DNA of 53,646 bases, from positions 1-53,646 of the IMG/VR virus record IMGVR_UViG_3300046707_000046; one strand, given 5' to 3'. Positions 1,064-49,515 of the stretch are shown here, one piece after another (the first letter of the stretch is position 1; the number at the start of each line of letters is the position of its first letter). This DNA comes from a virus. Its lineage: Duplodnaviria; Caudoviricetes. The notes below the pieces were generated by a model. It searched no databases, was not told the origin of the DNA, and saw nothing but the letters and a program-made list of their open reading frames with translations. The position numbers and the translations under genes were made by a program.

Positions 1064-1157
1064 ACAGACAAGCTAGGGTGAGCTACGGATAACCAACCGT
1101 AGCTCGCTCAGCCTGGCTAGTCAGTGACCAGGGGTAAGGATGAGAGAGGATCAAGAG

Positions 1158-1414: not shown

Positions 1415-1505
1415 CTAGCTAGGCCGTCTTGGTCGGTCACGACGTAAAGTCGTGCCCGGTCATGTATGCCTAGACATGATGGCAGCAAGTGAACGGAGAG
1501 AGATT

Positions 1506-1806
1506 ATGAGCGGAATCAATATCGGCCAGCCAATCGCGGGTAACGAGGATTGGGTGGGGTACCCCGGTTATCGCAATCGCTTACGACCGGCCGGGGCTGA
1601 ACACGAAATACGCTACGGTCCTATTCAGGCTCGGCGAGTTCGGCAGTGATCGCTGGCAGATACGGAGCATCACCCTAGACGGCAAGCGGGAGGTTAACCC
1701 GCTGGTTCTCACAACCGCCAGCATAGACGAAACCTTCAACGGCGCTGAGGTCATCACCGGCGAAACCGCAAGGGAGAGCATTGTGGAGTACGTGGACGAC
1801 TTCTAG
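1506..1806 (+). pseudogene. Early gene frameshifted by the 4-bp duplication TGGG-TGGG (1551-1558)
   Basis: SD+ATG frame stops at 1649; the +1 frame is open 1510-1806 with no usable start; removing 4 bp gives a 98-aa ORF. Confidence 0.6.
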
Positions 1807-1898
1807 ACGAGTTGCATCACTTAGGGCGCTTGGCTAGTCCCTAAGTGGTGTTGCTTGCCTAAAGCAAGTGCTGTGAAAAGCGAGAGGGGAAAAACGCA

Positions 1899-2990
1899 AT
1901 GGAGGAATGCCACAATTGCGGAGCGGCGATCTACTGGGAAGATGCCAGGCAATGCCCCGAGTGCGATGCGTGGCACTGCCTTAAGGCTACGTGTGCCATG
2001 TGGCCTTTTGAATGCTGCAAATCGTGTGCTGCTATTGAGCACAAGCCGATTCCCCCGGCACCCGTTGGGGGTGACGGCGAGCCATCGCCTGGTGACTGGC
2101 CTGATGAGCCAGGCGAGTCTAGCGTCGGCAGTGACGATGGTCCGGTTACCACGCTTACGGACATAGAATTTGATGTCAGTGAGCTAGGCGAGACATCCGA
2201 GGATAACGGCTTGATGCCCGCCGGCGAAGGTGGAGCGGCAGGTCTTGATCTTGGAGACAACGCCAGCGGTGAAATGCACTCGGCTACCGGGGACGAAACC
2301 GGGACCGAGAGTGATGATGCCGAAGGTGATGGGGAATCATCATCGTCACAGGATGGCCAGCCGTCCGAAGACAGTCAGCAGGGCGACTCCGAAGACGACT
2401 ATGACGATGATGAGTCATCGTCGGATGATGATGAGTACGCCGCCGACGAGGAAACCGAATATGACGATGACATAGATAAGCTGTTTGACCAGATAGATAA
2501 GCTGTTTGACCAGCTTGAGTCTGACAGCGACGACAGCAGCAACGACGACAGCGAGACAGAGTCGGAAGATGACGATGAATCCGACGATGGCGACAACGAC
2601 GGTAACGATCCCCAGTTTGCCATGTACTACCAGCCTCACCGGATTAAGCTACCGCCTAAGCCCGAACCTAAGGCCGACGAGGATTCATCGATGAGCGATT
2701 CCGAGGTACCGCCAGAGGTACCCCCGTATGGCGAGTTCGATGATGATGACGAGCCAGCCGGGCCAGACCCGGACGTGCCCGTTATGCGTCCATTCAAGGT
2801 TCATGCCTACTTCGACATGGAAGAAGACGGCATGGCAGAATTTCTGGCAGATCAGGGCTTGCCTCCCATGCTGGTCGATTCCATCATAGAAGATGGCAAA
2901 TTCGGCAGGCATGGGGAAGTTACCCTAACCTGTCTCATTGATGCCAAGACGAGAGAGATAGTCGTAATCGACTGTGATTACCTGGATTGA
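1899..2990 (+). CDS. Very acidic protein with N-terminal Cys-rich Zn finger
   Basis: Four CxxC/Cx4C pairs, long D/E/S tract, SD GAGAGGGG; internal 21-bp tandem duplication 2472-2513 (IDKLFDQ x2). Confidence 0.85.
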   Translation: MEECHNCGAAIYWEDARQCPECDAWHCLKATCAMWPFECCKSCAAIEHKPIPPAPVGGDGEPSPGDWPDEPGESSVGSDDGPVTTLTDIEFDVSELGETSEDNGLMPAGEGGAAGLDLGDNASGEMHSATGDETGTESDDAEGDGESSSSQDGQPSEDSQQGDSEDDYDDDESSSDDDEYAADEETEYDDDIDKLFDQIDKLFDQLESDSDDSSNDDSETESEDDDESDDGDNDGNDPQFAMYYQPHRIKLPPKPEPKADEDSSMSDSEVPPEVPPYGEFDDDDEPAGPDPDVPVMRPFKVHAYFDMEEDGMAEFLADQGLPPMLVDSIIEDGKFGRHGEVTLTCLIDAKTREIVVIDCDYLD

Positions 2991-3088
2991 CCCGGTAAGG
3001 TCGGGCTTAGCATGACTAAGCCCGGTCTGGTCTGACCAATCCAACCAATCTGACTGACCAATCCGACCGACAACAAGGGAGAGTTAAC

Positions 3089-3293
3089 GTGGAGATACCC
3101 AAGTGGCTAGACCGGCTCAACCGTCACGTGTGCGGCAGGCAGCAAGATGCCGCAAGACGGCTCTATGCCTGATGAGTTCTGCACTCTGCCCCGCCGCCAC
3201 ATGGCGCAAGCCAGGCAGCATGTGAGCCCAGATTTCAGGTGGCCGCTAGCTCGCCAGGGTGCGATGCGCAACGACCGGTCGCAGACCTGCTAG
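3089..3293 (+). pseudogene. Small Cys/His protein frameshifted by the 4-bp duplication GGCA-GGCA (3134-3141)
   Basis: SD AAGGGAG+GTG frame stops at 3172; removing 4 bp gives 66 aa with a CG...FCTLPRRH...H...W motif. Confidence 0.6.
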
Positions 3294-3389
3294 CCAAGTT
3301 CAGCAGGGCTTGACGCCAGGTTTCGTGTCCGCTACGTTGGGCAGGTACGTACCCAGTCAAGCCAGTCGATCGAGAGAAGGAGCAAGGGC

Positions 3390-3764
3390 ATGACAACCAC
3401 TAAGCCAGCGGCAGACCAGGAAGTGCTGCTGATCGGCCGTGAGGATGACCAGGAGCCAGTCAACAGCGAAGACCAGGGCAGGCCGTTCGGAATGGCACTG
3501 CTGCACGCCGCGCTTGACGGCGACGTGCTCACTCTGTACGACCTGCTCATTGAACAGACCGACGATGACGTGCTCGGCGGCCTGACTCAGGCGATCGTCA
3601 TCCTCAACTCGGCGTGCCACGCGGCTTGCGACCATCGGGGACTGGATCACCGGGAACTGAGCATCAAGGCCGCTCAGCACTACGGAGAGGGCGTGCTGCG
3701 GCTGTTCGTCAAGTTCGCGGCCGAGGCCGAGACTGAGCAGCAGCCGGCACCAGACGAGCTTTAA
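3390..3764 (+). CDS. Hypothetical acidic helical protein
   Basis: SD AAGGAG, GC3-biased codons; resembles the next ORF (G.ALL.A.L.GD...L.D.L). Confidence 0.8.
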   Translation: MTTTKPAADQEVLLIGREDDQEPVNSEDQGRPFGMALLHAALDGDVLTLYDLLIEQTDDDVLGGLTQAIVILNSACHAACDHRGLDHRELSIKAAQHYGEGVLRLFVKFAAEAETEQQPAPDEL

Positions 3765-3841
3765 CCGTCTTGGTTAGACAGGGCCACGTTCCCTGTTTAG
3801 CCAAGCTGGCTAAAGGTTAGCTAGCAGAACGGAGAGAGGCA

Positions 3842-4189
3842 ATGGCAAACGATTGCGGCGGAAACCACGAAGGTCCGTGCGAGACGATCGGTGATGCACT
3901 TCTGCGGGCATGCCTTACCGGAGACAAGCGGCTGCTGTTCGACGTTCTGAGCACCTTCGAGACCGAGGAACTGCCAGCACTAGCGGAAGCCGCCGTGCTG
4001 TTCGCTTCGGGCGTGATGGCCATGATGGACGTTCGATCGGACGGCCCGGTCACGACGGCAATCCGGGCAGGCGCTGACCCGGCACTGGGCGAGCTTATCA
4101 AGTCGCTGGAAGACCTGGCAGGCGACGACCCGGCTATCGCCGGACTGCTCACGCTGCTCGCCGGGAACGATGACCCCGAAGGTTCTTAA
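3842..4189 (+). CDS. Hypothetical acidic protein, probable paralog of 3390-3764
   Basis: GDALLRACLTGDKRLLFDVL vs GMALLHAALDGDVLTLYDLL. Confidence 0.8.
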   Translation: MANDCGGNHEGPCETIGDALLRACLTGDKRLLFDVLSTFETEELPALAEAAVLFASGVMAMMDVRSDGPVTTAIRAGADPALGELIKSLEDLAGDDPAIAGLLTLLAGNDDPEGS

Positions 4190-4263
4190 CCGGCCTGGTC
4201 ATGCTAGGGGCAACTCTAGCCTGGCCAAGTCAGCTAAGAAAACGAAGGGAGAGTCAGGGAAAA

Positions 4264-4455
4264 ATGGAGTTGACCGGGCCTAACCTCAAGTACAAGTACC
4301 GGGCACACAAGCCCCGGTCCCGGTATAAGGCCGACTACATGGGCAACAGCGGCAAGAAGCGGGCAAAGCACGTTCTGCTGCCAATGGTGCCCGGCATCAA
4401 GATCAAGACCATCATCCGTCGCTACGTGACCCTAAAGGGGAAGGGAAAGAAGTAA
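4264..4455 (+). CDS. Small Lys/Arg-rich protein
   Basis: ATG after a purine-rich SD; MELTGPNLKYKYR... Confidence 0.7.
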   Translation: MELTGPNLKYKYRAHKPRSRYKADYMGNSGKKRAKHVLLPMVPGIKIKTIIRRYVTLKGKGKK

Positions 4456-4456
4456 C

Positions 4457-4723
4457 ATGGCAGCACCAAGAGCGCTAGCCAAGAAAAAGGCCAACTCGGA
4501 GCCGAGACTCCGCAAGCCCGACGCCGGGCCTGGTCGCTTCTCTGCCCGTACCCTTACCGATCCGCTTACGGGCATGGGGCTACGCAAGTCCAAGCTACGG
4601 GGCAGGCTGCACAGACTGGCCTGCCGGGTAGCGGCTAAGCCCCCCACCAAGAAGACGGCTGACGGCGATTTCAAGCATTACACGTACGCAACGCCGGGCA
4701 GCCTGAACGTCAGGGCACGCTGA
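4457..4723 (+). CDS. Small basic protein
   Basis: Abuts the upstream stop. Confidence 0.7.
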   Translation: MAAPRALAKKKANSEPRLRKPDAGPGRFSARTLTDPLTGMGLRKSKLRGRLHRLACRVAAKPPTKKTADGDFKHYTYATPGSLNVRAR

Positions 4724-4815
4724 TCTAGCAGACCGCTTGACACTCGTAACTAGCCCCTGTAGGTTACGAGTGTCGGGCAGCCCGCTAGAGCGGGAACCAA
4801 GATAGGAGCACCAAA

Positions 4816-5085
4816 ATGGACAAGACGACCGAGCAGGGAATCACGCCGACGCCGGCTACCAACACCTTCGGCCACGCCTACGGCGACTGGGTGCAGACCG
4901 ACACGGCAGCCGACTCGCTGGATGAGTTTATCGCCGGGGCGCTGGGAATCCCGGCTGAGCACGTCGGCGTCATCGCCCTGGTCATGATCGACGCCGTAGA
5001 CCCCAGCGAGGTCTACATCCTCGGCAACGTTCCGGCCGAAGACATCCCGCTGGTACTCGCTCAGGGGCTGCTCATGACGACCTGA
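4816..5085 (+). CDS. Hypothetical acidic protein
   Basis: SD AGGAG. Confidence 0.8.
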   Translation: MDKTTEQGITPTPATNTFGHAYGDWVQTDTAADSLDEFIAGALGIPAEHVGVIALVMIDAVDPSEVYILGNVPAEDIPLVLAQGLLMTT

Positions 5086-5175
5086 CGGACCTAGTTGGCC
5101 AGGGCCTAGCCTCCCTGGCCTTCTAAGCCCTGCCAGACCGATCAAGAGCAGGTAGCCAAGAGAGAGGGCATCAAG

Positions 5176-5592
5176 ATGCCAGAGAACAACGAGCTTGCCG
5201 GCAAGATCAGGGAGTACACCACCCGTGCGATGGCCACCCCTGGCCAGATCGTGGAGGAAAACTCCCTGCCGATCGCCGACGTGCTGCCGTCAGCGGCGAT
5301 GCTGCTCGGCCAGGAGCCGGATGAGCTTGATGGCTTCCTGATCATCGGCTTCCGCAAGGACGGGTCAACCCTGATGGGCGGGAACGTGGACCCGATCGGG
5401 ACCGCCGCGCTGCTGATCGAACTGGGACTTTCGATGGACCCGGAGCTTATGAGCCGGGTGCAGGGAGATGTCATGAAGTCCCTGTTCGGCAGCATGCTGG
5501 GCGACCTTGGCCCGTGTGACGACCCGACGTGTTCCGTCTGCCACGCGGACACCGCAGACGATCAGGGCGAGACGGTCACCCCGGCCAGCTAG
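5176..5592 (+). CDS. Hypothetical acidic protein with C-terminal CDDPTCSVCH motif
   Basis: SD GAGAGGG; GC3 bias. Confidence 0.8.
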   Translation: MPENNELAGKIREYTTRAMATPGQIVEENSLPIADVLPSAAMLLGQEPDELDGFLIIGFRKDGSTLMGGNVDPIGTAALLIELGLSMDPELMSRVQGDVMKSLFGSMLGDLGPCDDPTCSVCHADTADDQGETVTPAS

Positions 5593-5683
5593 ACCGGCCA
5601 GGTGGGCTAAGGGCTTAAGATCGGTCCTTAGCTCGCCTAGCCTGGCTAGACCAGGAAGGGTAAAAGGGAGAGGCAGACAGGCA

Positions 5684-6361
5684 ATGGAACCCATTCAATT
5701 TGAGGCTTGGCAGAAAATCGGCCGCTACCGGCGCAACTCGGTGGTATCCGAGAAGATCGACGGCATGAACGCCGCTGTTGGTGTCGTGGAGATCGAGCGC
5801 AGCCCCAACGGGGCGCTGCCGTTCGGCTGGGATCGCCAGCCTGCTACCCTGATCGTGACGGGGAACGGTGCGGAGACCCGCACCTTCCTGGTCTACGCTC
5901 AGTCTCGCACCAGGATCATCACCCCCGAGGCCGACAACTTCGGCTTTGCCAGGTGGGCCTACGAGAATGCGGAGACCCTGGCCGCTGACCTCGGGCCGGG
6001 CCTGCACTTCGGGGAATGGTGGGGACACGGCATCCAGCGGGGTTACGGCCAGACCGCTAAGCGGCTTAGCCTGTTCAACACGAGCAGGTGGGCCGGCAAC
6101 GAGTTCGTCACTCCGAACCTGGGCGTTGTCCCGGTCATCGGGCACGGCGCACTCTGTGACGAGCTTGTGGAAGGCAGTATCGGCCTGCTTCGCAAGCACG
6201 GATCGGTGGCCGCACCGGGGTTCATGAACCCGGAGGGCATCGTCATCTTCCACCTTGCGACGCACCACTGTTACAAGGTCACCATTGCCGGCGACGATTC
6301 GCCCAAGTCGCTCGGCCAGCACGCGGATAAGCCCAAGTTCCGCCTCGTGGACAGTGCCTAG
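5684..6361 (+). CDS. RNA ligase (Rnl2-like nucleotidyltransferase, phage type)
   Basis: Motif I EKIDG.N, QSR.R.ITP..DN.GFA.W, HFGEWWG.GIQR.Y, PEGIV. Confidence 0.85.
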   Translation: MEPIQFEAWQKIGRYRRNSVVSEKIDGMNAAVGVVEIERSPNGALPFGWDRQPATLIVTGNGAETRTFLVYAQSRTRIITPEADNFGFARWAYENAETLAADLGPGLHFGEWWGHGIQRGYGQTAKRLSLFNTSRWAGNEFVTPNLGVVPVIGHGALCDELVEGSIGLLRKHGSVAAPGFMNPEGIVIFHLATHHCYKVTIAGDDSPKSLGQHADKPKFRLVDSA

Positions 6362-6548
6362 TCTCGGCGGTAACGTCCGCTTCCCGATCACCCGGTATGT
6401 AGTCGAAAGCCGGGACGGGGACACGGGCGAGCCCTGCGAGACCTACGATGAGGCCCGTACGGTGGCATCCGACGAGGGCGGCCGGGTGCTGGGACTGGTC
6501 TACATCTTCAGTCACACGGAAGTAGTTGACGACTTCACCCGTCACTAG
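6354..6548 (+). CDS. Hypothetical protein
   Basis: GTG overlapping the ligase stop. Confidence 0.6.
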   Translation: MPSLGGNVRFPITRYVVESRDGDTGEPCETYDEARTVASDEGGRVLGLVYIFSHTEVVDDFTRH

Positions 6549-6641
6549 GTAGGATGATTCTCCTGGGAGTCAGCTTAGTCCCCAGGAGAGTCACCCCAGC
6601 TAGAAGGGGTAAAATCGAACAAAAAACTACAGGGAGTAATC

Positions 6642-6782
6642 ATGGAAAGAACGCACGCGGAGCTTGATGCCGAGCTAGTGACACGTCGTGTCAGCCGGGA
6701 GTGCGACACCGGTCAGTCACATAGGACCGGGCGAGGGTTGGACTGCGAGAACACGATGTGCCAGTGCTGGTGTCACGAGTAG
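6642..6782 (+). CDS. Small Zn-binding protein (C...H...CENTMCQCWCH)
   Basis: SD AGGGAG; 46 aa. Confidence 0.65.
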   Translation: MERTHAELDAELVTRRVSRECDTGQSHRTGRGLDCENTMCQCWCHE

Positions 6783-6793
6783 GGGTCAAAACG

Positions 6794-6892
6794 ATGCCTA
6801 GTTGGTGGGTGTGCTTAAGATGCGGACACAGGAACAAGCACAGCATGGAGGTCTGCACGAACTGTGGTCAGCCCCCGAATGCAGGTGCATAG
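6794..6892 (+). CDS. 32-aa RanBP2-type zinc-finger microprotein
   Basis: MPSWWVCLRCGHRNKHSMEVCTNCGQPPNAGA fits W-x-C-x2-C-x3-N-x6-C-x2-C; SD-like AGGGG. Confidence 0.65.
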   Translation: MPSWWVCLRCGHRNKHSMEVCTNCGQPPNAGA

Positions 6893-7089
6893 GACAGGAC
6901 GGACGACCGAAGGTGCGATACTACAGTCGGGAAGACGCCAGGATGGCCCGTAAGGCGATGAGAGGGCGGGGGGCATACCCAGGTCACCCCCTGAGAGCCT
7001 ACCGCTGCCCTGGCCATCCTGGGCTGTTCCACATAACATCCAACACAACCGATTCGGTTACCTGGTACAGAGAGAGAGGGTTGTCATGA
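6820..7089 (+). CDS. Small Zn-finger-like protein (KVRY.S...A...LRAYRCP....FHITS); start uncertain
   Basis: Motif common in actinophage small proteins. Confidence 0.6.
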   Translation: MRTQEQAQHGGLHELWSAPECRCIGQDGRPKVRYYSREDARMARKAMRGRGAYPGHPLRAYRCPGHPGLFHITSNTTDSVTWYRERGLS

Positions 7090-7346
7090 CCGCTGAGTAC
7101 GTATACCGCGTTACCTCGGAGCCCCCGCCAGGGGGAACCGCGCATCGCACTCGAAGGCTTAAGCGGACGCTTAAGACCCGGAACGCCATCGTCCAGATTC
7201 TGGCGGCCAATGAGAAGTACGGCCCGGAGTCAGCTACTAGCTGGCGACGGCCCCGGCTTGATCGCCGGGAGGTTATCACCATCGAGCGGGCACTAGTTAC
7301 CGGGTGGGAAGTAATCGACCCGAGCCAGCTTAAGGAGAGGCCATGA
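7086..7346 (+). CDS. Hypothetical protein
   Basis: ATGA coupling, SD GAGAGGG. Confidence 0.7.
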   Translation: MTAEYVYRVTSEPPPGGTAHRTRRLKRTLKTRNAIVQILAANEKYGPESATSWRRPRLDRREVITIERALVTGWEVIDPSQLKERP

Positions 7347-7828
7347 AGTACACCGAGATAGCGCCGGACTACTTCGACATGGAGCCTAAGCTCCCTGCCC
7401 TTAGGCTAAGGGCGATCCTGCGGCCCTACCGGACTATCCGGTCGCTACAGCGGGCCAACTGCAATCAGGTCAGGATGCTGGATGACCAGAGGCGCACCGT
7501 TGCGGGTTACCGTCGCAACTTCGACACGGCGGTCAAGACAATGCGAGACTCCGAGCTAAGGGTATCCGAGCTTGGGGCTGAGCTACAGGCAGAACGCCAG
7601 GCAACCGAAGACCTGGCCGCGCACGCGGCCGGGATGCGGGAGCAAATCTGCAACCAGAAGGCCATCATCAAGCTACTGCACGCTAACGACGGGGAGGGCT
7701 ATTCGGCCGGTCTTCATCAGGGCCACCATGACGCCATGAACGACATGCTCGGCCCTTGTCCCGAGTGCGGATCATCAGCCCCGTTGTGGCCACACGACGG
7801 GGATTGCCCAAATAGCAGGAGAGGCTAG
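7343..7828 (+). CDS. Coiled-coil protein with C-terminal CPEC...H..DC
   Basis: SD AAGGAG; heptad-rich middle. Confidence 0.75.
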   Translation: MKYTEIAPDYFDMEPKLPALRLRAILRPYRTIRSLQRANCNQVRMLDDQRRTVAGYRRNFDTAVKTMRDSELRVSELGAELQAERQATEDLAAHAAGMREQICNQKAIIKLLHANDGEGYSAGLHQGHHDAMNDMLGPCPECGSSAPLWPHDGDCPNSRRG

Positions 7829-7831
7829 GCC

Positions 7832-8173
7832 ATGAACCGAAAGATCACGGCAGCAGTAGCTGCTACCGTTCTGCTGATTGCAGGGTGCGGTACGGTTACC
7901 GCCAGCCCTGCCCACGCAACCATCACGAGCAGACCGCCAGCCGTAACGTGCCAGGGATCGGCGGTCACCCAGTACACGGCAACCGGGCACTGGTCGATGC
8001 ACACGTTCCTGCGGCGGCATCACAGCGACGTGTCAACCATGCTCGACTACACCATTCACTGTGCCAGGGGCTGGCCTCCCGGCTTCGCTGCCTACCTGAA
8101 CAAGCAGAACTGGCGGCTGTTCGTGCCCGCCGGCGTGAAGTTCTGGGATATACAGCCGCCGCCATCGTCCTAA
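7832..8173 (+). CDS. Putative lipoprotein, possibly with a degenerate LysM-like domain
   Basis: Signal peptide with lipobox LIAGC. Confidence 0.65.
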   Translation: MNRKITAAVAATVLLIAGCGTVTASPAHATITSRPPAVTCQGSAVTQYTATGHWSMHTFLRRHHSDVSTMLDYTIHCARGWPPGFAAYLNKQNWRLFVPAGVKFWDIQPPPSS

Positions 8174-8263
8174 CAGATTTAGCCGGCCCCGTCTGGTATT
8201 GACGGGGCTGGCCATGTCGGCTAGGATAAAGGCAACCAAGCAAGCGAAAGGGGAGTATGGACG

Positions 8264-8467
8264 ATGAGGGAGATAACGCGGGAGACCTTCCGCGATGACA
8301 AAGACCCGGAAGGCAACTGGCGGGAAGGCACCGCTAAGGCTCAAGCCGAGCTTACCCGTAAGATCGTGATGGCAAGAGCCAAAAGGCAGTTCGAGAAGGG
8401 CACCTTCAAGGTGCAGGTCAAGCGCATGTCACCACACGTGTATGCGGTCATCCTCTGGGAAAAGTGA
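8264..8467 (+). CDS. Hypothetical protein
   Basis: SD GGGGAG. Confidence 0.7.
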   Translation: MREITRETFRDDKDPEGNWREGTAKAQAELTRKIVMARAKRQFEKGTFKVQVKRMSPHVYAVILWEK

Positions 8468-8477
8468 GGTAAGCCAG

Positions 8478-8756
8478 ATGGTGCTTAAGAAGATCAAGGG
8501 CCGCTACGCAAGCGGCGGGGTCTACAAGGGCGGCGAGATTGATCCGGTCAAGGTCAACACCGAAATCGCCAAGCAGCAAAAGAAGCACGACCAGGACGTG
8601 CAGAAGCGTGCCATGAAGGAAGCTGCGGCTAAGGGTGACGAGGTTATCGCCCTGGCCAGGAAGCACCACCCAGGCGACGCTAAGGCACTCGCCGGGGCCA
8701 AGAAGATCAAGGCCGGCATGATCAGGCAGGCCAAGAGAAACAACCCGATCAAGTAA
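8478..8756 (+). CDS. Lys/Ala-rich basic protein
   Basis: SD GAGGT; MVLKKIKG... Confidence 0.7.
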   Translation: MVLKKIKGRYASGGVYKGGEIDPVKVNTEIAKQQKKHDQDVQKRAMKEAAAKGDEVIALARKHHPGDAKALAGAKKIKAGMIRQAKRNNPIK

Positions 8757-8917
8757 TGGGCTGGCCTAAGGGCAAGAAGCGTCCCAAGGGATTCGGGGCG
8801 ACGGTGAGCAAGGGCCTGAAGCAGTGTAAGTGCAGCGTCCTGGCACTTCCCTGCCGGCTTTGCAGGCATTGCGCCAAGAATCGCGGGCGCGGGTGCTTGT
8901 GCAAGGGTGACAAGTAA
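8756..8917 (+). CDS. Small basic Cys-rich protein (53 aa)
   Basis: TAATG coupling; MGWPKGKKRPK...CKC...CRLCRHC...CLC. Confidence 0.6.
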   Translation: MGWPKGKKRPKGFGATVSKGLKQCKCSVLALPCRLCRHCAKNRGRGCLCKGDK

Positions 8918-8924
8918 GAGAGAC

Positions 8925-8958
8925 AGGCCCCCGCCCTAACCCGGCGGGGGTCTTTTTT
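8925..8958 (+). terminator. Intrinsic terminator at the convergence of the two arms
   Basis: AGGCCCCCGCC-loop-GGCGGGGGTCT followed by a T-run. Confidence 0.85.
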
Positions 8959-8964
8959 GCGTTG

Positions 8965-9044
8965 TGGAGCAGTCCGGGATCGAACCGGAATCCGTAAGGC
9001 CCAGCCTAAGCCAGACCTTACGTCGAAAACCAGCATTCTGCCCC
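8965..9044 (-). ncRNA. Mini-tmRNA: tRNA-like domain only, no tag ORF or pseudoknots
   Basis: GGGGCAG AATGCTGGTTTTCGA CGTAAGGTCTGGC TTAG GCTGGGCCTTACG GAT TCCGG TTCGATC CCGGA CTGCTCC A: Ala acceptor stem with G3:U70, stemless D-loop ending TTCGA, helix 2a, GA(T) linker, T arm. Confidence 0.85.
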
Positions 9045-9238
9045 TACTCGATACTCAGGCCATCCTTGGAGCACCAGGCACATTCCAGGTAGACATAAAC
9101 CACCTTTCGTGAGCCCTTAAACGGCTTGTCGCTGACGCGACGGTGGCTCATCAGACCCGCGTCGATATAGCGGGTCTTCCTACGCCGCTCCATTGGCTTG
9201 TGCGTCCCGTCTGGCGATTTTGAGCAACTTCCTCTCAC
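9044..9238 (-). CDS. Small basic Zn-ribbon protein
   Basis: C.KSPDG.H ... ECAWC. Confidence 0.6.
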   Translation of the reverse strand: MRGSCSKSPDGTHKPMERRRKTRYIDAGLMSHRRVSDKPFKGSRKVVYVYLECAWCSKDGLSIE

Positions 9239-9590
9239 GGGGGCATTCCTCCTTCGGAAACTGATGGCACGTGCATCCTACCGAGTAATTTACACCATCC
9301 CCGCTGATAAGGCAAGCGTTCCCGTAGCCTACCGGAGCGTACGACGTATAGCCCGGATCGACCATCGGCCAGGCGATGTCAAGGTAATCTTGTGCTGCCG
9401 CTGTTCCTAGCGGCCAGTAAGCGGCCTTGTCCGCATGGAAAGGAATGGTGTTGAAAGTAAAGGCAGGTATCCCGGTAGCAGTAAGTACCGAATCCACGGC
9501 GCTCTGAAATTCGGATAGGAAAGAGGACTTTGCAGGCAGCCCGTTAGGCTGCAAACTGATTATTTTTTTGGGACGCCGCTTACGGCTCAA
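9180..9590 (-). CDS. Hypothetical protein with C-terminal CTCH...C
   Basis: ORF in operon; overlaps the sigma gene stop. Confidence 0.55.
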   Translation of the reverse strand: MSRKRRPKKIISLQPNGLPAKSSFLSEFQSAVDSVLTATGIPAFTFNTIPFHADKAAYWPLGTAAAQDYLDIAWPMVDPGYTSYAPVGYGNACLISGDGVNYSVGCTCHQFPKEECPRERKLLKIARRDAQANGAA

Positions 9591-10351
9591 TTTAGCCCCC
9601 TGAGTGCCCGTTGCCGGGATATGCTGGGCTGGCCAGCTACACCCGACACCGGGTTGGTCCCGACACGATCCGTCCGACCCCCAACCGGGGCGGTCTGGTA
9701 TTCCATGTCACGGCGACGCCAGGGGTTATCCCCGCCAAGCTCCCGCTGAAGGGAACGTACCGCCTTGTGAACCCTGATCTTCAGGGCGTTAAGCGTAAGC
9801 CCCATCGAGCTAGCAATCTGGTTGCGGGTAAACCGGGAGTCGGAGTCATCACCCTGCGGAGCAGCGTAGTACGTCTCGATAACCGCCCGCTCGTGCCTCT
9901 TGATCTTCCCCATCGCCAGGCTGATGTCAGTCATCATCGCCAGGTAGTCCCCAGACTCGCTGAGAAGCCCGCTGCGGCCCCGGACCCTGCCCTTGGGTGG
10001 TTCGGCTACCACCCCGCCGTCCAGGTACGCAGGGAGCAGCAGGCGAAGGAGGCCCATCGTATAGAACTGCTCGTCATCGACCGCGTAGCCTTCGGCCGCC
10101 GCCTTCTCGGCCCGCTGCTGCCGCTCGTCATCCTTGCAGGCCCGCCAGCCAGCCCGGCGTACGGCGTTGAAAAGGATGTCAAGCTGGCCTTCGGCAAGCA
10201 GCCCCTCAAGGTTCTCAGCCTGGGTCAGGGCACCGGCCCACATTTCCTGGGCGAGGTCTTCGGTTCCGATACGGCTGTAGCCACGGTGCAACTGCGTGGC
10301 TATCCGGGGAATGACCGAGCTAAGGTGCTCGGTAAGAGCAGGGCTAAGCAT
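9587..10351 (-). CDS. Phage sigma-factor-like protein
   Basis: Region 2-like EDLAQEMW, region 4 HTH (QIASSMGLTLNALKIRVHKAVRSL), C-terminal LGG.NPW as in actinophage sigma-like proteins. Confidence 0.8.
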   Translation of the reverse strand: MLSPALTEHLSSVIPRIATQLHRGYSRIGTEDLAQEMWAGALTQAENLEGLLAEGQLDILFNAVRRAGWRACKDDERQQRAEKAAAEGYAVDDEQFYTMGLLRLLLPAYLDGGVVAEPPKGRVRGRSGLLSESGDYLAMMTDISLAMGKIKRHERAVIETYYAAPQGDDSDSRFTRNQIASSMGLTLNALKIRVHKAVRSLQRELGGDNPWRRRDMEYQTAPVGGRTDRVGTNPVSGVAGQPSISRQRALRGLN

Positions 10352-10748: not shown

Positions 10749-11420
10749 TTAGAGCCCGGCAGCCCGGCGAACTTCGGCAGGGCCATGCTGCAAGTAGGTA
10801 TCCGTAGCGTCCTTGCATGCGAGGGTAATGATCTCGGCTGTGTCGATATCCTTAGCCAGGCGCTTAGCAAGCTCAAGTCCTGGCCGTCGCCCGGTATTCG
10901 CATCGGGCTCGTCATTGTCCCTGAAGATCAGCACGCGCTTGTAACCCCGGAACATCAGCGACCATTCCGGGTGCTTGTGCCAGGTATCAACACCCGGGAT
11001 GCCTACCGAGGGGATGCCGCACAGTGACGTAAGGATCATGGCGTCAAACTCGCCTTCGCAGATGCCCACGTACCCCGCATGGTCCGCTCGCTCAAGGGCA
11101 AGGGTGTTATAGAGCCTGCTTTCCCCGGCTGCCTGAAGATACCTTGAGTGCTTGCAGGAAGGTTCGCAGTTGTGCGGCTGCCTGACCTTGATAGCACACA
11201 CCCCGCCCCGGAGGGTCAGGTACGGAATGGATATCATGCCGGCATAGTCAGCATAACCGCTGACGCTATCTGTTACCATGCCAAGCTTGTACTCGACCAC
11301 CATGTCCGTTGTTACCCCGCGTCCATGCAGGTAGCTTACTACGGGGGACGTAATCGCCTGGTGAAAAGTCTCCGTAGCTGTGTCCAGTGATCTCCTGAAC
11401 TCGTCGCTTAGCCTCAGCAA
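10749..11420 (-). CDS. DNA primase, TOPRIM part
   Basis: YLHGRG, ISIPYLT, ICEGEFDA, VGIPG, DNDE..G. Confidence 0.9.
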   Translation of the reverse strand: MLRLSDEFRRSLDTATETFHQAITSPVVSYLHGRGVTTDMVVEYKLGMVTDSVSGYADYAGMISIPYLTLRGGVCAIKVRQPHNCEPSCKHSRYLQAAGESRLYNTLALERADHAGYVGICEGEFDAMILTSLCGIPSVGIPGVDTWHKHPEWSLMFRGYKRVLIFRDNDEPDANTGRRPGLELAKRLAKDIDTAEIITLACKDATDTYLQHGPAEVRRAAGL

Positions 11421-11667
11421 AGCCGACTCCCTCCGCGAATTGAACTACCGAGTAGGCATCTCCTGCTAGCGGGTCACCGTGCTCATTGCAGCAGACAAAG
11501 CACTTGAAGGCCCCTTCCTCTATGTTGACCGAGGCGCTAGCCCGCCTGTCGTCATGGAAAGCGCACCGTACGGGCCGCCAGCCCCCCCATCCGGGGAGGC
11601 CAGCGAACCCGTAGTGCTCCAAGACCGGAGCTATCGGCGGCTTAGAGGTACTGTCCGAAATGTCCAT
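11266..11667 (-). CDS. DNA primase, CHC2 zinc-finger part
   Basis: VLEHYG...CAFHDDRRASASVN...FKCFVC...GDAY. Confidence 0.85.
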   Translation of the reverse strand: MDISDSTSKPPIAPVLEHYGFAGLPGWGGWRPVRCAFHDDRRASASVNIEEGAFKCFVCCNEHGDPLAGDAYSVVQFAEGVGFAEAKRRVQEITGHSYGDFSPGDYVPRSKLPAWTRGNNGHGGRVQAWHGNR

Positions 11668-12121
11668 CGTCTTCAGACTTGCCCTCGTCTTCCGCGTCTC
11701 CTGCTGATGCCTTAGCTGCTGCTGCTTGCATGCGCTGGCGTTGCAGCGAGGCCACGACGGCACGCAAGGCTGCCGTGCTGGCCGGGTCGGGACGCCTCGG
11801 GCCGGCTTCCCCGCCGAAGACGGGAGAGGCGGGCATGCTCTGTGCAGCACGACCAGCGGCGGCGTGCTTGTGCAGTTGCATGGCACCCTCGGGCTCGGCC
11901 CTCAGGTTAGCCAGAATCACCTTGAACAGGTAACGGATCATCACGAGCCCGCCATAGGCGGCCAGCCCTGTTCCGATGGTCCCGGAGGGCAGCGGTACAG
12001 CTAGCCCGATCAGGGCAACCATGACCACGATCTGGATAGCCTCGGCTACCATGAAGACGACCGGGAACGCGGATAGCTTGAGCCCTATGCTGACGTACTT
12101 CTTAACCTTCTTGATGTTCAT
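11642..12121 (-). CDS. Membrane protein
   Basis: Two hydrophobic segments; SD GGAGG. Confidence 0.7.
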   Translation of the reverse strand: MNIKKVKKYVSIGLKLSAFPVVFMVAEAIQIVVMVALIGLAVPLPSGTIGTGLAAYGGLVMIRYLFKVILANLRAEPEGAMQLHKHAAAGRAAQSMPASPVFGGEAGPRRPDPASTAALRAVVASLQRQRMQAAAAKASAGDAEDEGKSEDDGHFGQYL

Positions 12122-12495: not shown

Positions 12496-12618
12496 TTACT
12501 TCTTGAACATCTCTACTATCTTCTCGGCAGCCAGGCCGAGAAGGAAGGCGATCAGGAGGTAACCCACCGGCAGGTGGATGTGCAGGTGAGTAGTTGCGAC
12601 AGCGGCGTAGGTGTGCAT
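12496..12618 (-). CDS. Small membrane peptide (40 aa)
   Basis: TAATG coupling; YLLIAFLLGLAA. Confidence 0.55.
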   Translation of the reverse strand: MHTYAAVATTHLHIHLPVGYLLIAFLLGLAAEKIVEMFKK

Positions 12619-12989
12619 TACTTGCTCCTAGGGATCATGACCTGCCCGTTGCTTGGATCAAAAGGACGCCCCTTAGCTCCCCCTTGGGCACGCCTGGCCG
12701 GGACGGTCATGCCGCCCCATACCCCGTAGGGTTCATCCCAGCCGTACTCAAGACACTGAAACCTGACCGGGCATGAACCGCACACCCGCATCTGCTGCTC
12801 GTACTTCCGCAAGCCCCGGCCGGGGATCATGAGGTCGTACCCGTGCTCTGCCAGCACATCAGGCTGAGCGCAAGCCGCCGAAGCCATCCAGCCTGGCAGC
12901 GGGTACAGGAATTCCATGTCCACAATCGGGACTCTCGGACGGGGAGCCATGCCGGCTTCCTCCTGATCGCAGGGCACCTGGTCTCTCAT
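12618..12989 (-). CDS. whiB: WhiB-family transcription factor
   Basis: W...AAC...C.SCPVR.QCLEYG....YGVWGG. Confidence 0.9.
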   Translation of the reverse strand: MRDQVPCDQEEAGMAPRPRVPIVDMEFLYPLPGWMASAACAQPDVLAEHGYDLMIPGRGLRKYEQQMRVCGSCPVRFQCLEYGWDEPYGVWGGMTVPARRAQGGAKGRPFDPSNGQVMIPRSK

Positions 12990-14097: not shown

Positions 14098-14448
14098 CTA
14101 GGCGGCGGGCCACCTCTCCCACTGGCCGTTTCGCCTTACCTCTATCAGGAGGTTAGCCGGGTCAAGACTGCGCTCCACCCTCTCGGAGGGGTCAGGGGGC
14201 ACGTCAAGAACCCTCTTGTTAAGCCATATCCTGAACTTCGGGGTCTCTGACATGCGTCGGAAGGCCGCCCTCTTGTTCTCTAGCTGAGAGCGGCTATCCC
14301 GTGCCTCGCCTACCGCCCCGGACTCAGGGTGAATGATACGTACCCCGGTGTCCCTCTTGTTCTGGTTTGACCCGCCCTTGCCCCCGGCACGGAAGGTTTG
14401 CACGATGCAATCCTTGATCGTGACCGAGAACAAGCGCGTCCGTGGCAT
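14098..14448 (-). CDS. Peptide chain release factor (RF-1 domain, ArfB/PrfH-like) with GGQ replaced by GGS
   Basis: FRAGGKGGSNQNKRDTGVRIIH..SG......SRSQLENKRAAF. Confidence 0.9.
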   Translation of the reverse strand: MPRTRLFSVTIKDCIVQTFRAGGKGGSNQNKRDTGVRIIHPESGAVGEARDSRSQLENKRAAFRRMSETPKFRIWLNKRVLDVPPDPSERVERSLDPANLLIEVRRNGQWERWPAA

Positions 14449-14635: not shown

Positions 14636-14986
14636 TTAGACGCACCCTCCGCTCTTGATGTACCTGATGGCACCCTCAAGAATCTCCACAGCATGGTCCT
14701 TGCCCTTACTGGACTCCCTGCATATCCAGCCTAGCAGGTGCAGGTTGCACTTCTTGCATAGTAGGCCCCGCCAGCAGACCTTGCAACCCCTCTGGCAATG
14801 GTCGTGATCGTGATCAAATGCGAAGTTTGTCTTGCCGTGAGGTGAGCGGCAGATCGCGCAGCATCCACCTTGCTTAGCTAGCTGCCGGTCGTAGTCTTCC
14901 TGGGTGATGCCGTGACGAGCCAGGGTAGCACGACGGGAAGCCGCCCGTCTCTTAGCAGCGGCTTCCCTCTGAATCCTAGTCGGCAC
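14636..14986 (-). CDS. Recombination endonuclease VII
   Basis: HGIT..DY......QGG.CAIC.......DHDH.....RGLLC..CN. Confidence 0.9.
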   Translation of the reverse strand: MPTRIQREAAAKRRAASRRATLARHGITQEDYDRQLAKQGGCCAICRSPHGKTNFAFDHDHDHCQRGCKVCWRGLLCKKCNLHLLGWICRESSKGKDHAVEILEGAIRYIKSGGCV

Positions 14987-15920
14987 CGAGGACCGATCCT
15001 CCCGTCTTGTGCGGGCAATCGCACTCACCTGGCAGGTTGTTCTGCCGGCAGGCCCAGTGCAGGAAGTCCCGGCGGGCAGCCAGGAGCTTCCATGACCTGG
15101 CATAGTCCGGGCTTGCCTGGATCATGTCGTTAAGCTTGTTAGCTTCCAGGCAGGAGCCGCAAAGTGTCATCGCTTTATCCAGTTGTCGCCAGGAATCGGA
15201 CCTCGGATGTTGCGCCCGGCTATGTCCCTCGGGTAGTGCGTCCTGATGCACAGCACGCAAGCTATCCTGATGTGCCGCGTGAACGAGCGGTACGTGGTAT
15301 CGAAGGTCTTACCGCAAAGTTCACACTTGCCGCTGCTGCTCATGGCCGGTTAGCCCTCCGGGATAGCCGGGCCTGACGGTTCTTAGCCCGGCGCTTAGCT
15401 ATGACAGCCTTCGGAACGGTTCCCTCATAGAGGGGCCGACCGAGCAGCCCGTTGTCAACCGACCGGCTGAGGATAAAGAGCATCCCCACCGCTGCTGGCA
15501 GGTCTGCCAGGGCTAGGACGGCCTCGGCAGACGGCCCGGCGTCCTGCGGCATCTCTTGCATCTTTCACCTCCTGAGCACACCAGGAGCTTGCCGTCCATC
15601 TTGTAGGTGTGAGGGTTGAACTTCTTGTGCTCGCACTTGGCGACACGACCCCTGCCCTTGCAGTCAGGGCACTTGATGCCCGCTGGGGTAAGGCCCATCT
15701 GGGGTACCTCCTTCTTTCATCTACCCCCCACGGTAGCCGGCGCGGGGGTTCCCGTCAAGCCCTAGTTAGCACGGATTGCCTCTACGCGGGGGCACTTCCT
15801 GCACTCCCGGTAGATAGCTACTATCCCGTTACGCTTGATAGTCCGCTTGCGCCAGGAGTGACGACAGGTCTCGCGCGTGGGGCCATCTCCACGTCCTGAG
15901 CATATCTTCGGCGTGAGCAT
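14976..15920 (-). other. Cluster of about five small Cys-rich hypothetical ORFs
   Basis: Tightly coupled short ORFs with CxxC motifs (e.g. 15166-15343, 15340-15561, 15513-15698). Confidence 0.55.
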
Positions 15921-49493: not shown

Positions 49494-49515
49494 TGCTGTC
49501 CATTCGTCAGGAGGG

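What the first reader, a model, noticed from the sequence alone, without database searches (positions are those of the whole stretch)
8965..9044. 80-nt mini-tmRNA: intact tRNA-like domain with the whole mRNA-like domain replaced by a tetraloop hairpin
Seen: the minus strand reads GGGGCAG-AATGCTGGTTTTCGA-[CGTAAGGTCTGGC TTAG GCTGGGCCTTACG]-GAT-TCCGG TTCGATC CCGGA-CTGCTCC-A. Known: this is the tmRNA TLD layout (E. coli GGGGCUG AUUCUGGAUUCGA C...G GAC, T-arm, CAGCUCC A). It has the AlaRS determinants G3:U70 and A73, a stemless D-loop and the SmpB-binding elbow. Here helix 2 is a closed 13-bp hairpin, so the roughly 270 nt of pseudoknots and tag ORF are absent. The A6:U pair covaries relative to the usual U6:A, which argues for selection on structure. 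It is the last element of the leftward operon: G1 is the G of the upstream TAG stop and a terminator follows. CCA is not encoded, as for the five tRNAs. Inference: it is either an SmpB/EF-Tu decoy that blocks host trans-translation, or a tag-free rescue RNA that takes the stalled peptide onto Ala without marking it for degradation. TLD-only tmRNAs are known to me from jakobid mitochondria and engineered constructs, not from phages.
Basis: partly seen in the sequence, partly recalled or inferred. Interest (0 to 1): 0.92.

Follow-up and report, generated by a model that had tools for sequence, protein, structure and literature searches.

The report
Phage mini-tmRNA, tRNA-like domain only
A soil phage carries an 80-base gene for only the alanine-accepting, tRNA-like end of the bacterial ribosome-rescue RNA (tmRNA); one such phage RNA was already published, so this is a new and somewhat atypical member of a known kind that probably diverts the host's rescue-and-tagging system.

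Summary
Window 8965-9044 (- strand) reads and folds as described: a 7-bp acceptor stem with G3:U70 and A73, a stemless D region, a closed 13-bp hairpin and a T arm. Rfam's tmRNA model aligns end to end with 303 core positions deleted (40.2 and 48.7 bits; cut-off 47). The tRNA model and ARAGORN find nothing.

It is not the first phage case. Mycobacteriophage DS6A has a published 'TLD only' tmRNA (PMC4131195, PMC11915505). Of those 120 loci, 107 had a perfect acceptor stem, G3:U70 and A73, none of which the pattern asked for. A covariance model built without the window scores it 55.6 bits, against 60.9 for DS6A and 32.8 for the phage's own tRNA-Ala. Covariation across the family is very strong.

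Independent soil and rhizosphere assemblies reproduce the 80-nt form, so it is not a collapsed ssrA gene.

This scan's earlier notes already describe the family on other DNA.

Function is inferred: an Ala-charged, SmpB-binding competitor of host tmRNA.

Points specific to this phage:
- an unusual uninterrupted helix;
- G1 shares a base with the stop codon of a probable upstream gene;
- the phage encodes a small RF-1-domain protein (GGS in place of GGQ), and four of its five nearest homologues sit in phages that carry full-length tmRNA.

Verdict: new member of a known kind.

The parts
8965..9044 (-). Gene for an 80-nt TLD-only tmRNA (mini-tmRNA), from G1 at 9044 to discriminator A73 at 8965
   Evidence: Sequence; fold; Rfam tmRNA 40.2 and 48.7 bits; family model R1 55.6 bits, E 8e-12
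9038..9044 (-). Acceptor stem 5' strand GGGGCAG; G3 at 9042 pairs with U70
   Evidence: G3:U70 in 78 of 78 distinct family rows
9023..9037 (-). Stemless D region AAUGCUGGUUUUCGA (15 nt), matching the tmRNA consensus cuGGaUU.CGA printed by cmscan
   Evidence: alignment; a length of 15 nt occurs in 1 of 78 family rows, the usual range being 11-14
8993..9022 (-). Closed helix 2: an uninterrupted 13-bp stem with a UUAG tetraloop, in place of the about 300-nt mRNA-like domain and pseudoknots
   Evidence: 303 model positions deleted; an uninterrupted helix of 10 bp or more occurs in 2 of 78 family rows
8973..8989 (-). T arm UCCGG-UUCGAUC-CCGGA
   Evidence: T-stem pairs 100% paired in the family, 4 of 5 with compensatory changes
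8965..8972 (-). Acceptor 3' strand CUGCUCC plus discriminator A73; CCA is not encoded (next bases are CAA)
   Evidence: A73 in 107 of 107 family loci, CCA encoded in 43 of 107
9044..9238 (-). Upstream 64-aa ORF, probably a real gene; its TAG stop (9046-9044) shares its last base with G1 of the RNA, so there is no intergenic space or room for a promoter
   Evidence: ORF list; GC3 0.69 and GC2 0.49 as in known genes, only in this frame; GAAGGAGGA 9 nt before the GTG start; of 3 strain variants, 1 synonymous, 1 K-to-R, 1 T-to-K; no sigma-70-like promoter in 8600-9700
8925..8953 (.). 11-bp G+C-rich hairpin between the converging gene sets. It is a canonical terminator for the + strand (T-run at 8954-8963). 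On the - strand it has only a weak T/C tail, and lies 11 nt after A73
14098..14448 (-). Candidate partner, not shown to act with the RNA: a 116-aa stand-alone RF-1 (GGQ-type) domain protein that reads GGS at the catalytic motif, on the same strand 5 kb upstream
   Evidence: PF00472 48.8 bits against cut-off 35; alignments to release factors put S where they have Q; 4 of the 5 nearest homologues lie in phages with full-length tmRNA

Best explanation
Identity (about 0.9): this is a genuine gene for a tmRNA reduced to its tRNA-like domain. It belongs to the phage family whose published example is the 'TLD only' tmRNA of mycobacteriophage DS6A.

How it is made (inferred): it is transcribed as the last element of the leftward gene set, directly behind a small gene. 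RNase P would cut it free at G1. The 3' end would be trimmed and the host CCA-adding enzyme would add CCA.

How it works (inferred):
1. Host AlaRS charges it with alanine through G3:U70 and A73.
2. It binds host SmpB and EF-Tu, since the phage encodes no SmpB.
3. It then competes with host tmRNA for SmpB and for stalled ribosomes.
4. It has no resume codon, tag frame or stop codon, so the outcome is that the SsrA degradation tag is not added. This could happen through SmpB titration alone, or because the nascent chain is passed to Ala-TLD and then needs codon-independent release.

Shown here: sequence, fold, family membership, covariation and genuine presence in independent assemblies.
Inferred: processing, charging, SmpB binding and the effect on the host.
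For: Fit to models:
- The Rfam tmRNA model aligns end to end with the core deleted, at 40.2 and 48.7 bits.
- The tRNA model and ARAGORN find nothing.
- Model R1, built from 72 unique IMG/VR sequences and excluding the window, DS6A and L030, scores DS6A 60.9, the window 55.6 (E 8e-12), L030 39.0 and the window's tRNA-Ala 32.8 bits.

Family:
- 107 of 120 pattern loci have a 7/7 acceptor stem at a fixed offset. All 107 have G3:U70 and A73. None of these features was in the search pattern.
- On 78 distinct rows, 97.8% of cells pair, against 42-54% with slid partners. 12 of 19 pairs show compensatory changes. The covariation score is 0.699, against at most 0.099 in slid controls.

Assembly: a 53.8-kb contig (X2) and a 24.3-kb contig (X3) from other studies span 8500-9600 with 12 substitutions and one 12-bp insertion. 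None of these lies in 8965-9044, and there is no extra sequence where an mRNA-like domain would sit.

Phage content: no SmpB, no tyrosine integrase and no serine recombinase.

Literature (passages read): PMC4131195 says the DS6A sequence is little more than the TLD. It adds that a similar molecule, chargeable or not, strongly inhibits tmRNA, perhaps by titrating SmpB. PMC11915505 says the DS6A form inhibits endogenous tmRNA when expressed in E. coli.
Against: - No expression, processing, charging or binding data exist for this RNA.
- The primary paper on inhibition (Mao et al. 2009) is not held, so that result is known only through two citing papers.
- The window's RNA is atypical for the family. 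It lacks the A-rich internal loop (consensus UAAAACC) that most members and DS6A have in helix 2. It has GGAU where 64 of 78 rows have GGAC, and it is among the lowest-scoring members. Its binding properties could therefore differ.
- The cmscan score of 40.2 is below Rfam's gathering score of 47.
- Zero substitutions in 80 nt of the strain variant is not significant: about 0.9 would be expected at the flanking rate of 12 in 1101 (my arithmetic).
- The phage also encodes an RF-1-domain protein whose relatives accompany full-length phage tmRNAs. That fits a pro-rescue role at least as well as a pure decoy.
Confidence: 0.55

Rival explanations
1. Productive tag-free rescue module. Ala-TLD with host SmpB accepts the stalled peptide, and the phage's own small RF-1-domain protein (14098-14448, GGS) hydrolyses peptidyl-Ala-TLD without a codon. 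Ribosomes are freed and phage proteins escape the degradation tag. This shares its first steps with the best explanation and differs in outcome: rescue rather than blockade.
For: - The phage encodes a 116-aa stand-alone RF-1 domain on the same strand 5 kb upstream (PF00472, 48.8 bits).
- Its full-length homologues are essentially all in mycobacteriophages: 252 of 50,697 GenBank phage records match, 205 of them Mycobacterium phages.
- 4 of the 5 nearest homologue-bearing phages carry a full-length tmRNA gene at 73-111 bits.
- PMC5966550 (passages read) notes RF-1, Pth and tmRNA genes together in mycobacterial and mycobacteriophage tRNA arrays.
- PMC11915505 argues that CDS-less organellar tmRNAs still help cells cope with incomplete mRNAs.
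Against: - 0 of 65 mini-TLD-bearing records searched, DS6A included, encode an RF-1 domain. This is 0 of 16 among records at least 90% complete. 44 of the 109 records were not searched. The family as a whole has no such partner.
- No neighbouring protein is conserved: the largest neighbour cluster covers 10 of 85 non-redundant loci and does not include the window.
- The window's protein has GGS where all 5 homologues keep GGQ, so its hydrolase activity is uncertain.
- The five sampled phages represent few independent lineages and are tRNA-rich phages that carry many translation genes. The co-occurrence may therefore be indirect.
- Full-length tmRNAs bring their own stop codon and need no such factor.
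Confidence: 0.25
2. Inert relic. A full-length phage tmRNA lost its mRNA-like domain by deletion, and the stub is no longer used.
For: - Related actinophages carry full-length tmRNAs together with the same RF-1-domain protein.
- The window's helix 2 differs from the family norm.
- The RF-1 partner has lost its Gln.
- The TLD ends are about equally similar to all actinophage tmRNAs compared: 16-19 of 24 at the 5' end and 19-23 of 29 at the 3' end.
Against: - Every element needed for a folded, chargeable TLD is intact. The deletion product would also have to close by chance into a perfect 13-bp tetraloop hairpin.
- The same 80-nt design recurs in at least 107 loci with strong covariation. That shows selection on the design, though not on this particular copy.
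Confidence: 0.08
3. Integration-site remnant. A piece of host ssrA carried as an attP core, or picked up by imprecise excision.
For: tmRNA genes are common integration sites, and ssrA fragments occur in prophages (passage in PMC9004378).
Against: - An attP core carries only the 3' part of ssrA. Here both the 5' and 3' halves are present and joined by a designed hairpin.
- The complete 53.6-kb genome has terminal repeats. It has no tyrosine integrase and no serine recombinase.
Confidence: 0.02
4. Aberrant tRNA, chance structure, or assembly collapse of a full-length ssrA.
For: ARAGORN and Rfam at gathering threshold do not call it.
Against: - No tRNA-model match at E<=10, and there is no anticodon arm.
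- 0 of 200 shuffles fold as well.
- Two long contigs from other studies give the same 80 nt with no insertion.
Confidence: 0.02

Closest known systems
'TLD only' / 'Standard, no CDS' tmRNA of Mycobacterium phage DS6A (tmRNA Website tmID 11587; PMC4131195, PMC11915505; JN698994 28478-28557)
   Same: - Both are 80 nt and phage-borne, and both probably have actinobacterial hosts.
- Both have a GGGG-start acceptor stem with G3:U70 and A73, a stemless D region, a closed helix 2 and a T arm.
- Neither encodes CCA.
- Both match the same family model: DS6A 60.9 bits, window 55.6 bits.
- ARAGORN calls neither one, and the DS6A element is unannotated in its GenBank record.
   Different: - DS6A keeps the family's A-rich internal loop and a small apical hairpin in helix 2. 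The window has an uninterrupted 13-bp helix.
- The window has GGAU before the T stem, and DS6A has GCAC there.
- DS6A has no RF-1-domain gene, and the window's phage has one.
- The phages are unrelated at the DNA level.
Full-length phage tmRNAs (mycobacteriophages Bxz1, Catera, Rizal, ScottMcG, Wildcat and others; PMC4131195)
   Same: - The same tRNA-like domain consensus.
- Actinophage setting.
- The genomes also carry the same small RF-1-domain protein family.
   Different: Those RNAs are 353-437 nt and match the whole Rfam model at 73-111 bits. ARAGORN reads a tag frame in the one full-length phage tmRNA I ran it on, G009. The window's RNA has no mRNA-like domain at all.
Mitochondrial (jakobid-type) and plastid CDS-less tmRNAs (Rfam RF02544 mt-tmRNA; PMC11915505)
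   Same: The same idea: a tmRNA reduced to its tRNA-like part, with no tag frame.
   Different: No match to RF02544 at E<=10. Those are organellar and permuted or derived forms, whereas the window's RNA follows the standard bacterial TLD consensus.
Engineered TLD-only tmRNA fragments (Mao et al. 2009, as cited in PMC4131195 and PMC11915505)
   Same: A TLD without the mRNA-like domain. Reported to inhibit endogenous tmRNA in E. coli whether or not it can be charged, perhaps by titrating SmpB.
   Different: Those are laboratory constructs or heterologous expression. The primary paper could not be read.
smpB-ssrA overlap in Carsonella (PMC4131195)
   Same: A gene overlaps the 5' end of a tmRNA gene, so maturation of the RNA would cut the mRNA and make it a non-stop substrate (passage read). 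Here the TAG of ORF 9044-9238 shares its G with G1.
   Different: In Carsonella the overlapping gene is smpB itself, and the RNA is a full tmRNA. Here the upstream gene is a 64-aa protein of unknown function.

Membership tests
tmRNA (Rfam RF00023, standard one-piece) | tRNA-like domain: 7-bp acceptor stem with G3:U70, discriminator A73, stemless D region and T arm matching the consensus | tested here: met
   cmscan alignment over model positions 1-374; fold
tmRNA (Rfam RF00023, standard one-piece) | Score at or above Rfam's gathering score (47 bits) | tested here: inconclusive
   40.2 bits in cmscan; 48.7 bits in the own-genome search
tmRNA (Rfam RF00023, standard one-piece) | mRNA-like domain with resume codon, tag reading frame and stop codon, plus pseudoknots | tested here: not met
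   303 model positions are replaced by 9 nt in the alignment. Only a 30-nt hairpin lies between the D region and the T arm. ARAGORN finds no tmRNA
Phage TLD-only tmRNA (DS6A type; 'Standard, no CDS') | About 60-86 nt: a TLD with helix 2 closed into a hairpin and no coding part, in a phage genome | tested here: met
   80 nt in a complete virus genome with terminal repeats; family lengths 59-86 nt, mode 79-80
Phage TLD-only tmRNA (DS6A type; 'Standard, no CDS') | Significant match to a family covariance model built without the candidate, above ordinary tRNA-Ala | tested here: met
   R1: window 55.6 bits (E 8e-12), DS6A 60.9, own tRNA-Ala 32.8
Phage TLD-only tmRNA (DS6A type; 'Standard, no CDS') | Invariant G1:C72, G2:C71, G3:U70 and A73 (alanine identity set) | tested here: met
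   Present in the window; 78 of 78 distinct rows for each of the three pairs; A73 in 107 of 107 loci
Phage TLD-only tmRNA (DS6A type; 'Standard, no CDS') | A-rich internal loop (consensus UAAAACC) and small apical hairpin within helix 2. This is typical of the family rather than strictly defining | tested here: not met
   The window has an uninterrupted 13-bp helix. 9 of 78 rows are uninterrupted, and only 2 of 78 have an uninterrupted helix of 10 bp or more
Phage TLD-only tmRNA (DS6A type; 'Standard, no CDS') | Alanylation by AlaRS, SmpB and EF-Tu binding, inhibition of tmRNA tagging | not testable with these tools
   Known only for a similar molecule, through statements in PMC4131195 and PMC11915505
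tRNA (Rfam RF00005) | Cloverleaf with D stem and anticodon arm; match to the tRNA model | tested here: not met
   No match at E<=10, while the 5 real tRNAs score 56.6-70.3 bits; ARAGORN makes no call
mt-tmRNA (Rfam RF02544) | Match to the mitochondrial TLD-only model | tested here: not met
   No match at E<=10
attP core / ssrA 3' fragment of a temperate phage | Only the 3' part of ssrA is present, and an integrase is encoded in the genome | tested here: not met
   Both halves of the TLD are present; no PF00589 match and no PF00239 match

The most novel reading that the evidence does not exclude
This phage runs a self-contained, tag-free ribosome-rescue circuit. RNase P releases the mini-tmRNA from the end of the leftward transcript. 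That cut removes the last base of the upstream gene's stop codon, creating a non-stop mRNA. Ala-TLD with host SmpB takes over the stalled chain. The phage's own RF-1-domain protein, with Ser in place of the universal Gln, hydrolyses peptidyl-Ala-TLD without a codon. The mini-tmRNA would then be half of a two-gene replacement for trans-translation rather than a mere decoy.
Probability: 0.12. Interest if true: 0.75.

Novelty: new member of a known kind. Interest (0 to 1): 0.42.

Why it matters
TLD-only tmRNAs are in print for one phage (DS6A), and only 9 'Standard, no CDS' sequences are counted in the 2025 tmRNA database. Here a single capped IMG/VR scan returned 107 loci (82 unique sequences) with the same design. 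ARAGORN overlapped only 6 of 110 of them with any call, so phage annotation misses this class as a matter of routine.

This example extends the class to an uncultured soil and rhizosphere phage, probably an actinophage. It shows that helix 2 can be a plain 13-bp hairpin. That helps define the minimal RNA that selection keeps, and gives a natural test of what SmpB and AlaRS need.

Two features make this phage a good system for deciding whether such RNAs block ribosome rescue or carry out a tag-free form of it. It pairs the RNA with a small RF-1-domain protein whose relatives travel with full-length phage tmRNAs. Its RNA also overlaps the stop codon of the gene in front.

Tried and rejected
Close relatives:
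- blastn of the region and of the element against GenBank phages found nothing useful.
- A first, over-specific IMG/VR pattern found nothing.
- Primase-based relatives are at most 38% identical. They gave no syntenic copy, but they did turn up L030.

Conserved partner gene: all-against-all BLAST of ORFs within 3 kb of 85 non-redundant elements found no family-wide neighbour.

RF-1 partner across the family: 0 of 65 records.

Other phage genes: no Pth and no SmpB.

Parent tmRNA: the TLD ends are about equally similar to all actinophage tmRNAs compared, so no parent can be named.

Promoter: no sigma-70-like site in 8600-9700. Phage-specific or actinobacterial promoters are not covered by that scan.

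Expression: no RNA holder was listed among the public runs. This says nothing about expression.

Strain conservation: zero changes in the element against 12 in 1101 bases is not significant (my arithmetic).

Host: inferred only from a WhiB gene, terminase relatives in Arthrobacter, Streptomyces and Microbacterium phages at 36-45% identity, the RF-1 homologues in mycobacteriophages and tRNA genes without CCA. I ran no spacer or prophage match, and left the genome contigs and metagenome scans unused.

Literature:
- Mao et al. 2009 is not held.
- Searches for 'mini-tmRNA', 'TLD-only', 'tmRNA-like' and 'CDS-less tmRNA' found no paper describing a phage family beyond DS6A. Nor did the searches for tmRNA with phage, tRNA-like domain or SmpB terms.
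- Subscription journals and supplementary tables (for example Table S2 of PMC11915505, which lists the 9 'no CDS' sequences) could not be seen and may hold more.

I ran no structure or complex prediction, because the question concerns an RNA.
Full report
1. What is there

The window is a complete IMG/VR virus genome of 53,646 bp with direct terminal repeats. The minimum-free-energy fold gives exactly these helices (-38.9 kcal/mol, z = -4.0, 0 of 200 shuffles as stable).

ARAGORN finds five tRNAs elsewhere in the window (Asn, Gln, Ala, Met, Gly at 49514-50242) and nothing here. Rfam at gathering threshold reports only those five tRNAs. A permissive scan of 8900-9110 aligns the tmRNA model RF00023 from position 1 to 374 with 303 core positions deleted, at 40.2 bits. 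The own-genome search gives the same place 48.7 bits, above the cut-off of 47, and gives the phage's tRNA-Ala only 31.1 bits. The tRNA model RF00005 does not match the element at E<=10. The mitochondrial TLD-only model RF02544 does not match either.

2. It is not an artefact or an integration scar

Public runs from soil and rhizosphere metagenomes hold this DNA. I laid contigs of four runs that are not the likely source. A 53.8-kb contig (X2) and a 24.3-kb contig (X3) cover 8500-9600 in one piece. They differ from the window by 12 substitutions and a 12-bp insertion behind 8920. Nothing differs inside 8965-9044, and nothing is inserted where an mRNA-like domain would be. A collapsed full-length ssrA is therefore excluded. 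The lack of substitutions in the element is not itself significant, since about 0.9 would be expected.

The genome has no tyrosine integrase, no serine recombinase and no SmpB. Both halves of the TLD are present, so an attP core or an excision remnant does not fit.

3. It belongs to a large phage family with a published member

Hudson, Lau and Williams (PMC4131195; passages read) list 'Mycobacterium phage DS6A (TLD only)'. They write that the DS6A sequence is little more than the TLD. They add that a similar molecule, chargeable or not, strongly inhibits tmRNA, perhaps by titrating SmpB, citing Mao et al. 2009. The 2025 tmRNA database paper (PMC11915505; passages read) counts 9 'Standard, no CDS' sequences. 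It says the DS6A form inhibits endogenous tmRNA in E. coli. The primary paper is not held.

The DS6A element lies at JN698994 28478-28557, between gp33 and gp34, and is not annotated.

I then scanned IMG/VR for GGGGNNG, a short gap, TTCGAC, 15-45 nt, GGTTCGANNCC. Of the 120 loci, 107 have a 7/7 acceptor stem at a fixed offset after the T arm. All 107 have G3:U70 and A73. 43 of the 107 encode CCA. There are 82 unique sequences of 59-86 nt, with a mode of 79-80. None of the 3' features was in the pattern. The other 13 loci lack the stem and look like chance matches.

A covariance model R1 was built from 72 unique sequences of 75-82 nt, without the window, DS6A or L030. With filters off it scores DS6A 60.9 bits, the window 55.6 bits (E 8e-12), L030 39.0 bits and the window's tRNA-Ala 32.8 bits. 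The next-best window hit scores 16.7 bits.

On the model-guided alignment of 99 matches (78 distinct rows), I counted pairs under a structure with the full acceptor stem, helix 2a and the T arm. 97.8% of cells pair, against 42-54% when partners are slid. 12 of 19 pairs show compensatory changes. The covariation score is 0.699, against at most 0.099 in slid controls. Two caveats apply: the alignment is fitted to the model, and the pattern fixed G1-G4, G7 and part of the T arm.

The pair at positions 6:67 is U:A in 48 rows, C:G in 15, A:U in 11 and G:C in 2. The window's A6:U67 is therefore a genuine covariant.

A further, divergent example turned up by chance in an unrelated AT-rich phage (L030:1501-1572). 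It has a GGGACUG acceptor stem with G3:U70, encodes CCA and appears to have its own promoter.

The earlier notes of this scan describe the same family on other genomes and name DS6A as the precedent. I checked both points myself.

4. How this copy differs from the family

Most members, and DS6A, have a 6-7-bp helix 2a, an A-rich internal loop (consensus UAAAACC) and a small apical hairpin. The window has an uninterrupted 13-bp helix. 9 of 78 rows are uninterrupted, and only 2 of 78 have an uninterrupted helix of 10 bp or more. It has GGAU before the T stem, which occurs in 4 of 78 rows, while GGAC occurs in 64 of 78. Its D region of 15 nt is found in 1 of 78 rows. It scores near the bottom of the family. 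It is a member, but an atypical one.

5. Setting in the genome

Genes from about 49.5 kb down to 9044 run leftward, and genes from 182 to 8917 run rightward. The element is the last feature of the leftward set.

The ORF directly in front (9044-9238, 64 aa) is probably a real gene. It has the codon-position G+C pattern of the phage's known genes, in that frame only. It has GAAGGAGGA 9 nt before its GTG start. Its three strain variants are one synonymous change, one Lys-to-Arg and one Thr-to-Lys. Its TAG ends on base 9044, which is G1 of the RNA.

There is therefore no room for a promoter, and none of sigma-70 type lies in 8600-9700. I infer that the RNA is co-transcribed and released by RNase P. 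Cleavage at G1 would remove the last base of the stop codon and leave a non-stop mRNA. PMC4131195 discusses the same situation for smpB-ssrA in Carsonella. This is an inference and was not tested.

Eleven bases after A73 comes an 11-bp G+C-rich hairpin (8925-8953). Its T-run lies on the + strand side, so it is a canonical terminator for the converging genes and at best a weak one for the leftward transcript.

Neither the element nor any of the five tRNAs encodes CCA.

A WhiB regulator (12618-12989) points to an actinobacterial host in soil. So do the terminase relatives in Arthrobacter, Streptomyces and Microbacterium phages at 36-45% identity. No direct host link was made.

6. Function

Nothing here measures function. 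The RNA keeps the set needed for alanine charging (G1:C72, G2:C71, G3:U70, A73). It also keeps the D/T-loop consensus that tmRNA uses; the role of that consensus in SmpB binding is established knowledge that I recall, not something tested here. The phage brings no SmpB, so the RNA must work with the host's. Together with the published inhibition by a similar molecule, the most likely mechanism is competition with host tmRNA for SmpB and for stalled ribosomes. The result would be that the degradation tag is not added.

Whether it stops at titration or also accepts the peptide is open. ORF 14098-14448(-) is a 116-aa stand-alone RF-1 domain (PF00472, 48.8 bits against cut-off 35) that reads GGS where release factors have GGQ.

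I tested the proposed link in both directions:
- Against it: 0 of 65 mini-TLD-bearing records, DS6A included, encode an RF-1 domain. This is 0 of 16 among records at least 90% complete, and 44 of the 109 records were not searched. No neighbouring protein is conserved across 85 non-redundant loci. The phage has no Pth.
- For it: the protein has homologues in 252 of 50,697 GenBank phage records, 205 of them Mycobacterium phages, mostly Bxz1-type. Of the five nearest that I fetched, four carry a full-length tmRNA (Nanosmite, EniyanLRS, prophiT49-2 and ScottMcG, at 73-111 bits). WXIN has none.

All five homologues keep GGQ. PMC5966550 already notes RF-1, Pth and tmRNA genes together in mycobacterial tRNA arrays.

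So in actinophages this small protein travels with tmRNA-type genes, and in this phage the mini-TLD fills that place. However, the lineages are few and all are tRNA-rich. The family as a whole has no such partner, and the Ser substitution makes activity uncertain. I therefore keep the rescue module as the main rival (0.25) to the competitor/decoy reading (0.55). I put identity as a TLD-only tmRNA at about 0.9.

7. Novelty and score

The kind is known from DS6A and from engineered TLDs. Its breadth in phages is not in print in the library I could search. This scan has already reported that breadth on other DNA. This copy adds an atypical helix 2, a stop-codon overlap and the RF-1(GGS) pairing. 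I rate it a new member of a known kind, with interest 0.42.

Noticed in passing
window 14098-14448 (-): A 116-aa stand-alone RF-1 domain protein with GGS in place of the universal GGQ. It has homologues in 252 of 50,697 GenBank phage records, 205 of them mycobacteriophages. The 5 nearest homologues keep GGQ, and 4 of those 5 phages carry a full-length tmRNA.
   Followed up: partly
window 9044-9046 (-): The TAG stop of the probable 64-aa gene 9044-9238 shares its G with G1 of the RNA. RNase P processing would leave the mRNA without a complete stop codon, as discussed for smpB-ssrA in Carsonella.
   Followed up: partly
L030:1501-1572 (+) (G008:C1:29627-29701): A divergent mini-TLD of about 72-75 nt in an unrelated AT-rich phage. 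It has a GGGACUG acceptor stem with G3:U70, encodes CCA, and has TTGACA and TATAAT-like hexamers just upstream. It scores 35.7 bits on Rfam tmRNA and 39.0 bits on R1, and ARAGORN makes no call.
   Followed up: partly
L036:1479-1558 (JN698994 28478-28557): The published DS6A TLD-only tmRNA carries no feature in its GenBank record. It lies between gp33 and gp34 (DNA pol III).
   Followed up: yes
L046, L078, L113, L114 (family loci): ARAGORN calls a tmRNA of about 320-430 nt whose 3' end coincides with the mini element. These could be real longer forms or ARAGORN artefacts. In L112 and L136 it calls the element tRNA-Glu.
   Followed up: no
window 12618-12989 (-), 5507-6361 (+), 14636-15103 (-): A WhiB-family regulator (PF02467, 45.8 bits), an RNA ligase (PF09414, 29.5 bits, just over the cut-off) and an endonuclease VII. 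WhiB points to an actinobacterial host. The ligase, the tRNAs and the RF-1 domain together form an RNA- and translation-related gene set.
   Followed up: partly
window 10749-11886 (-): The primase is split over two overlapping ORFs: a CHC2 zinc finger in 11266-11886 and a Toprim domain in 10749-11420. This may be two genes or a frameshift.
   Followed up: no
window 8920-8934: Strain variants in two other studies carry a 12-bp insertion (AGAGAGATAGAC) behind 8920 and two substitutions in the 5' arm of the terminator hairpin (8927 G>A, 8934 C>T).
   Followed up: no
L029:1501-1847 (G009, 163-kb phage): A distant primase relative carries a full-length tmRNA (89 bits) inside a large tRNA cluster. 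ARAGORN reads its tag as DNDIVAEAEAVLASAALATV.
   Followed up: no
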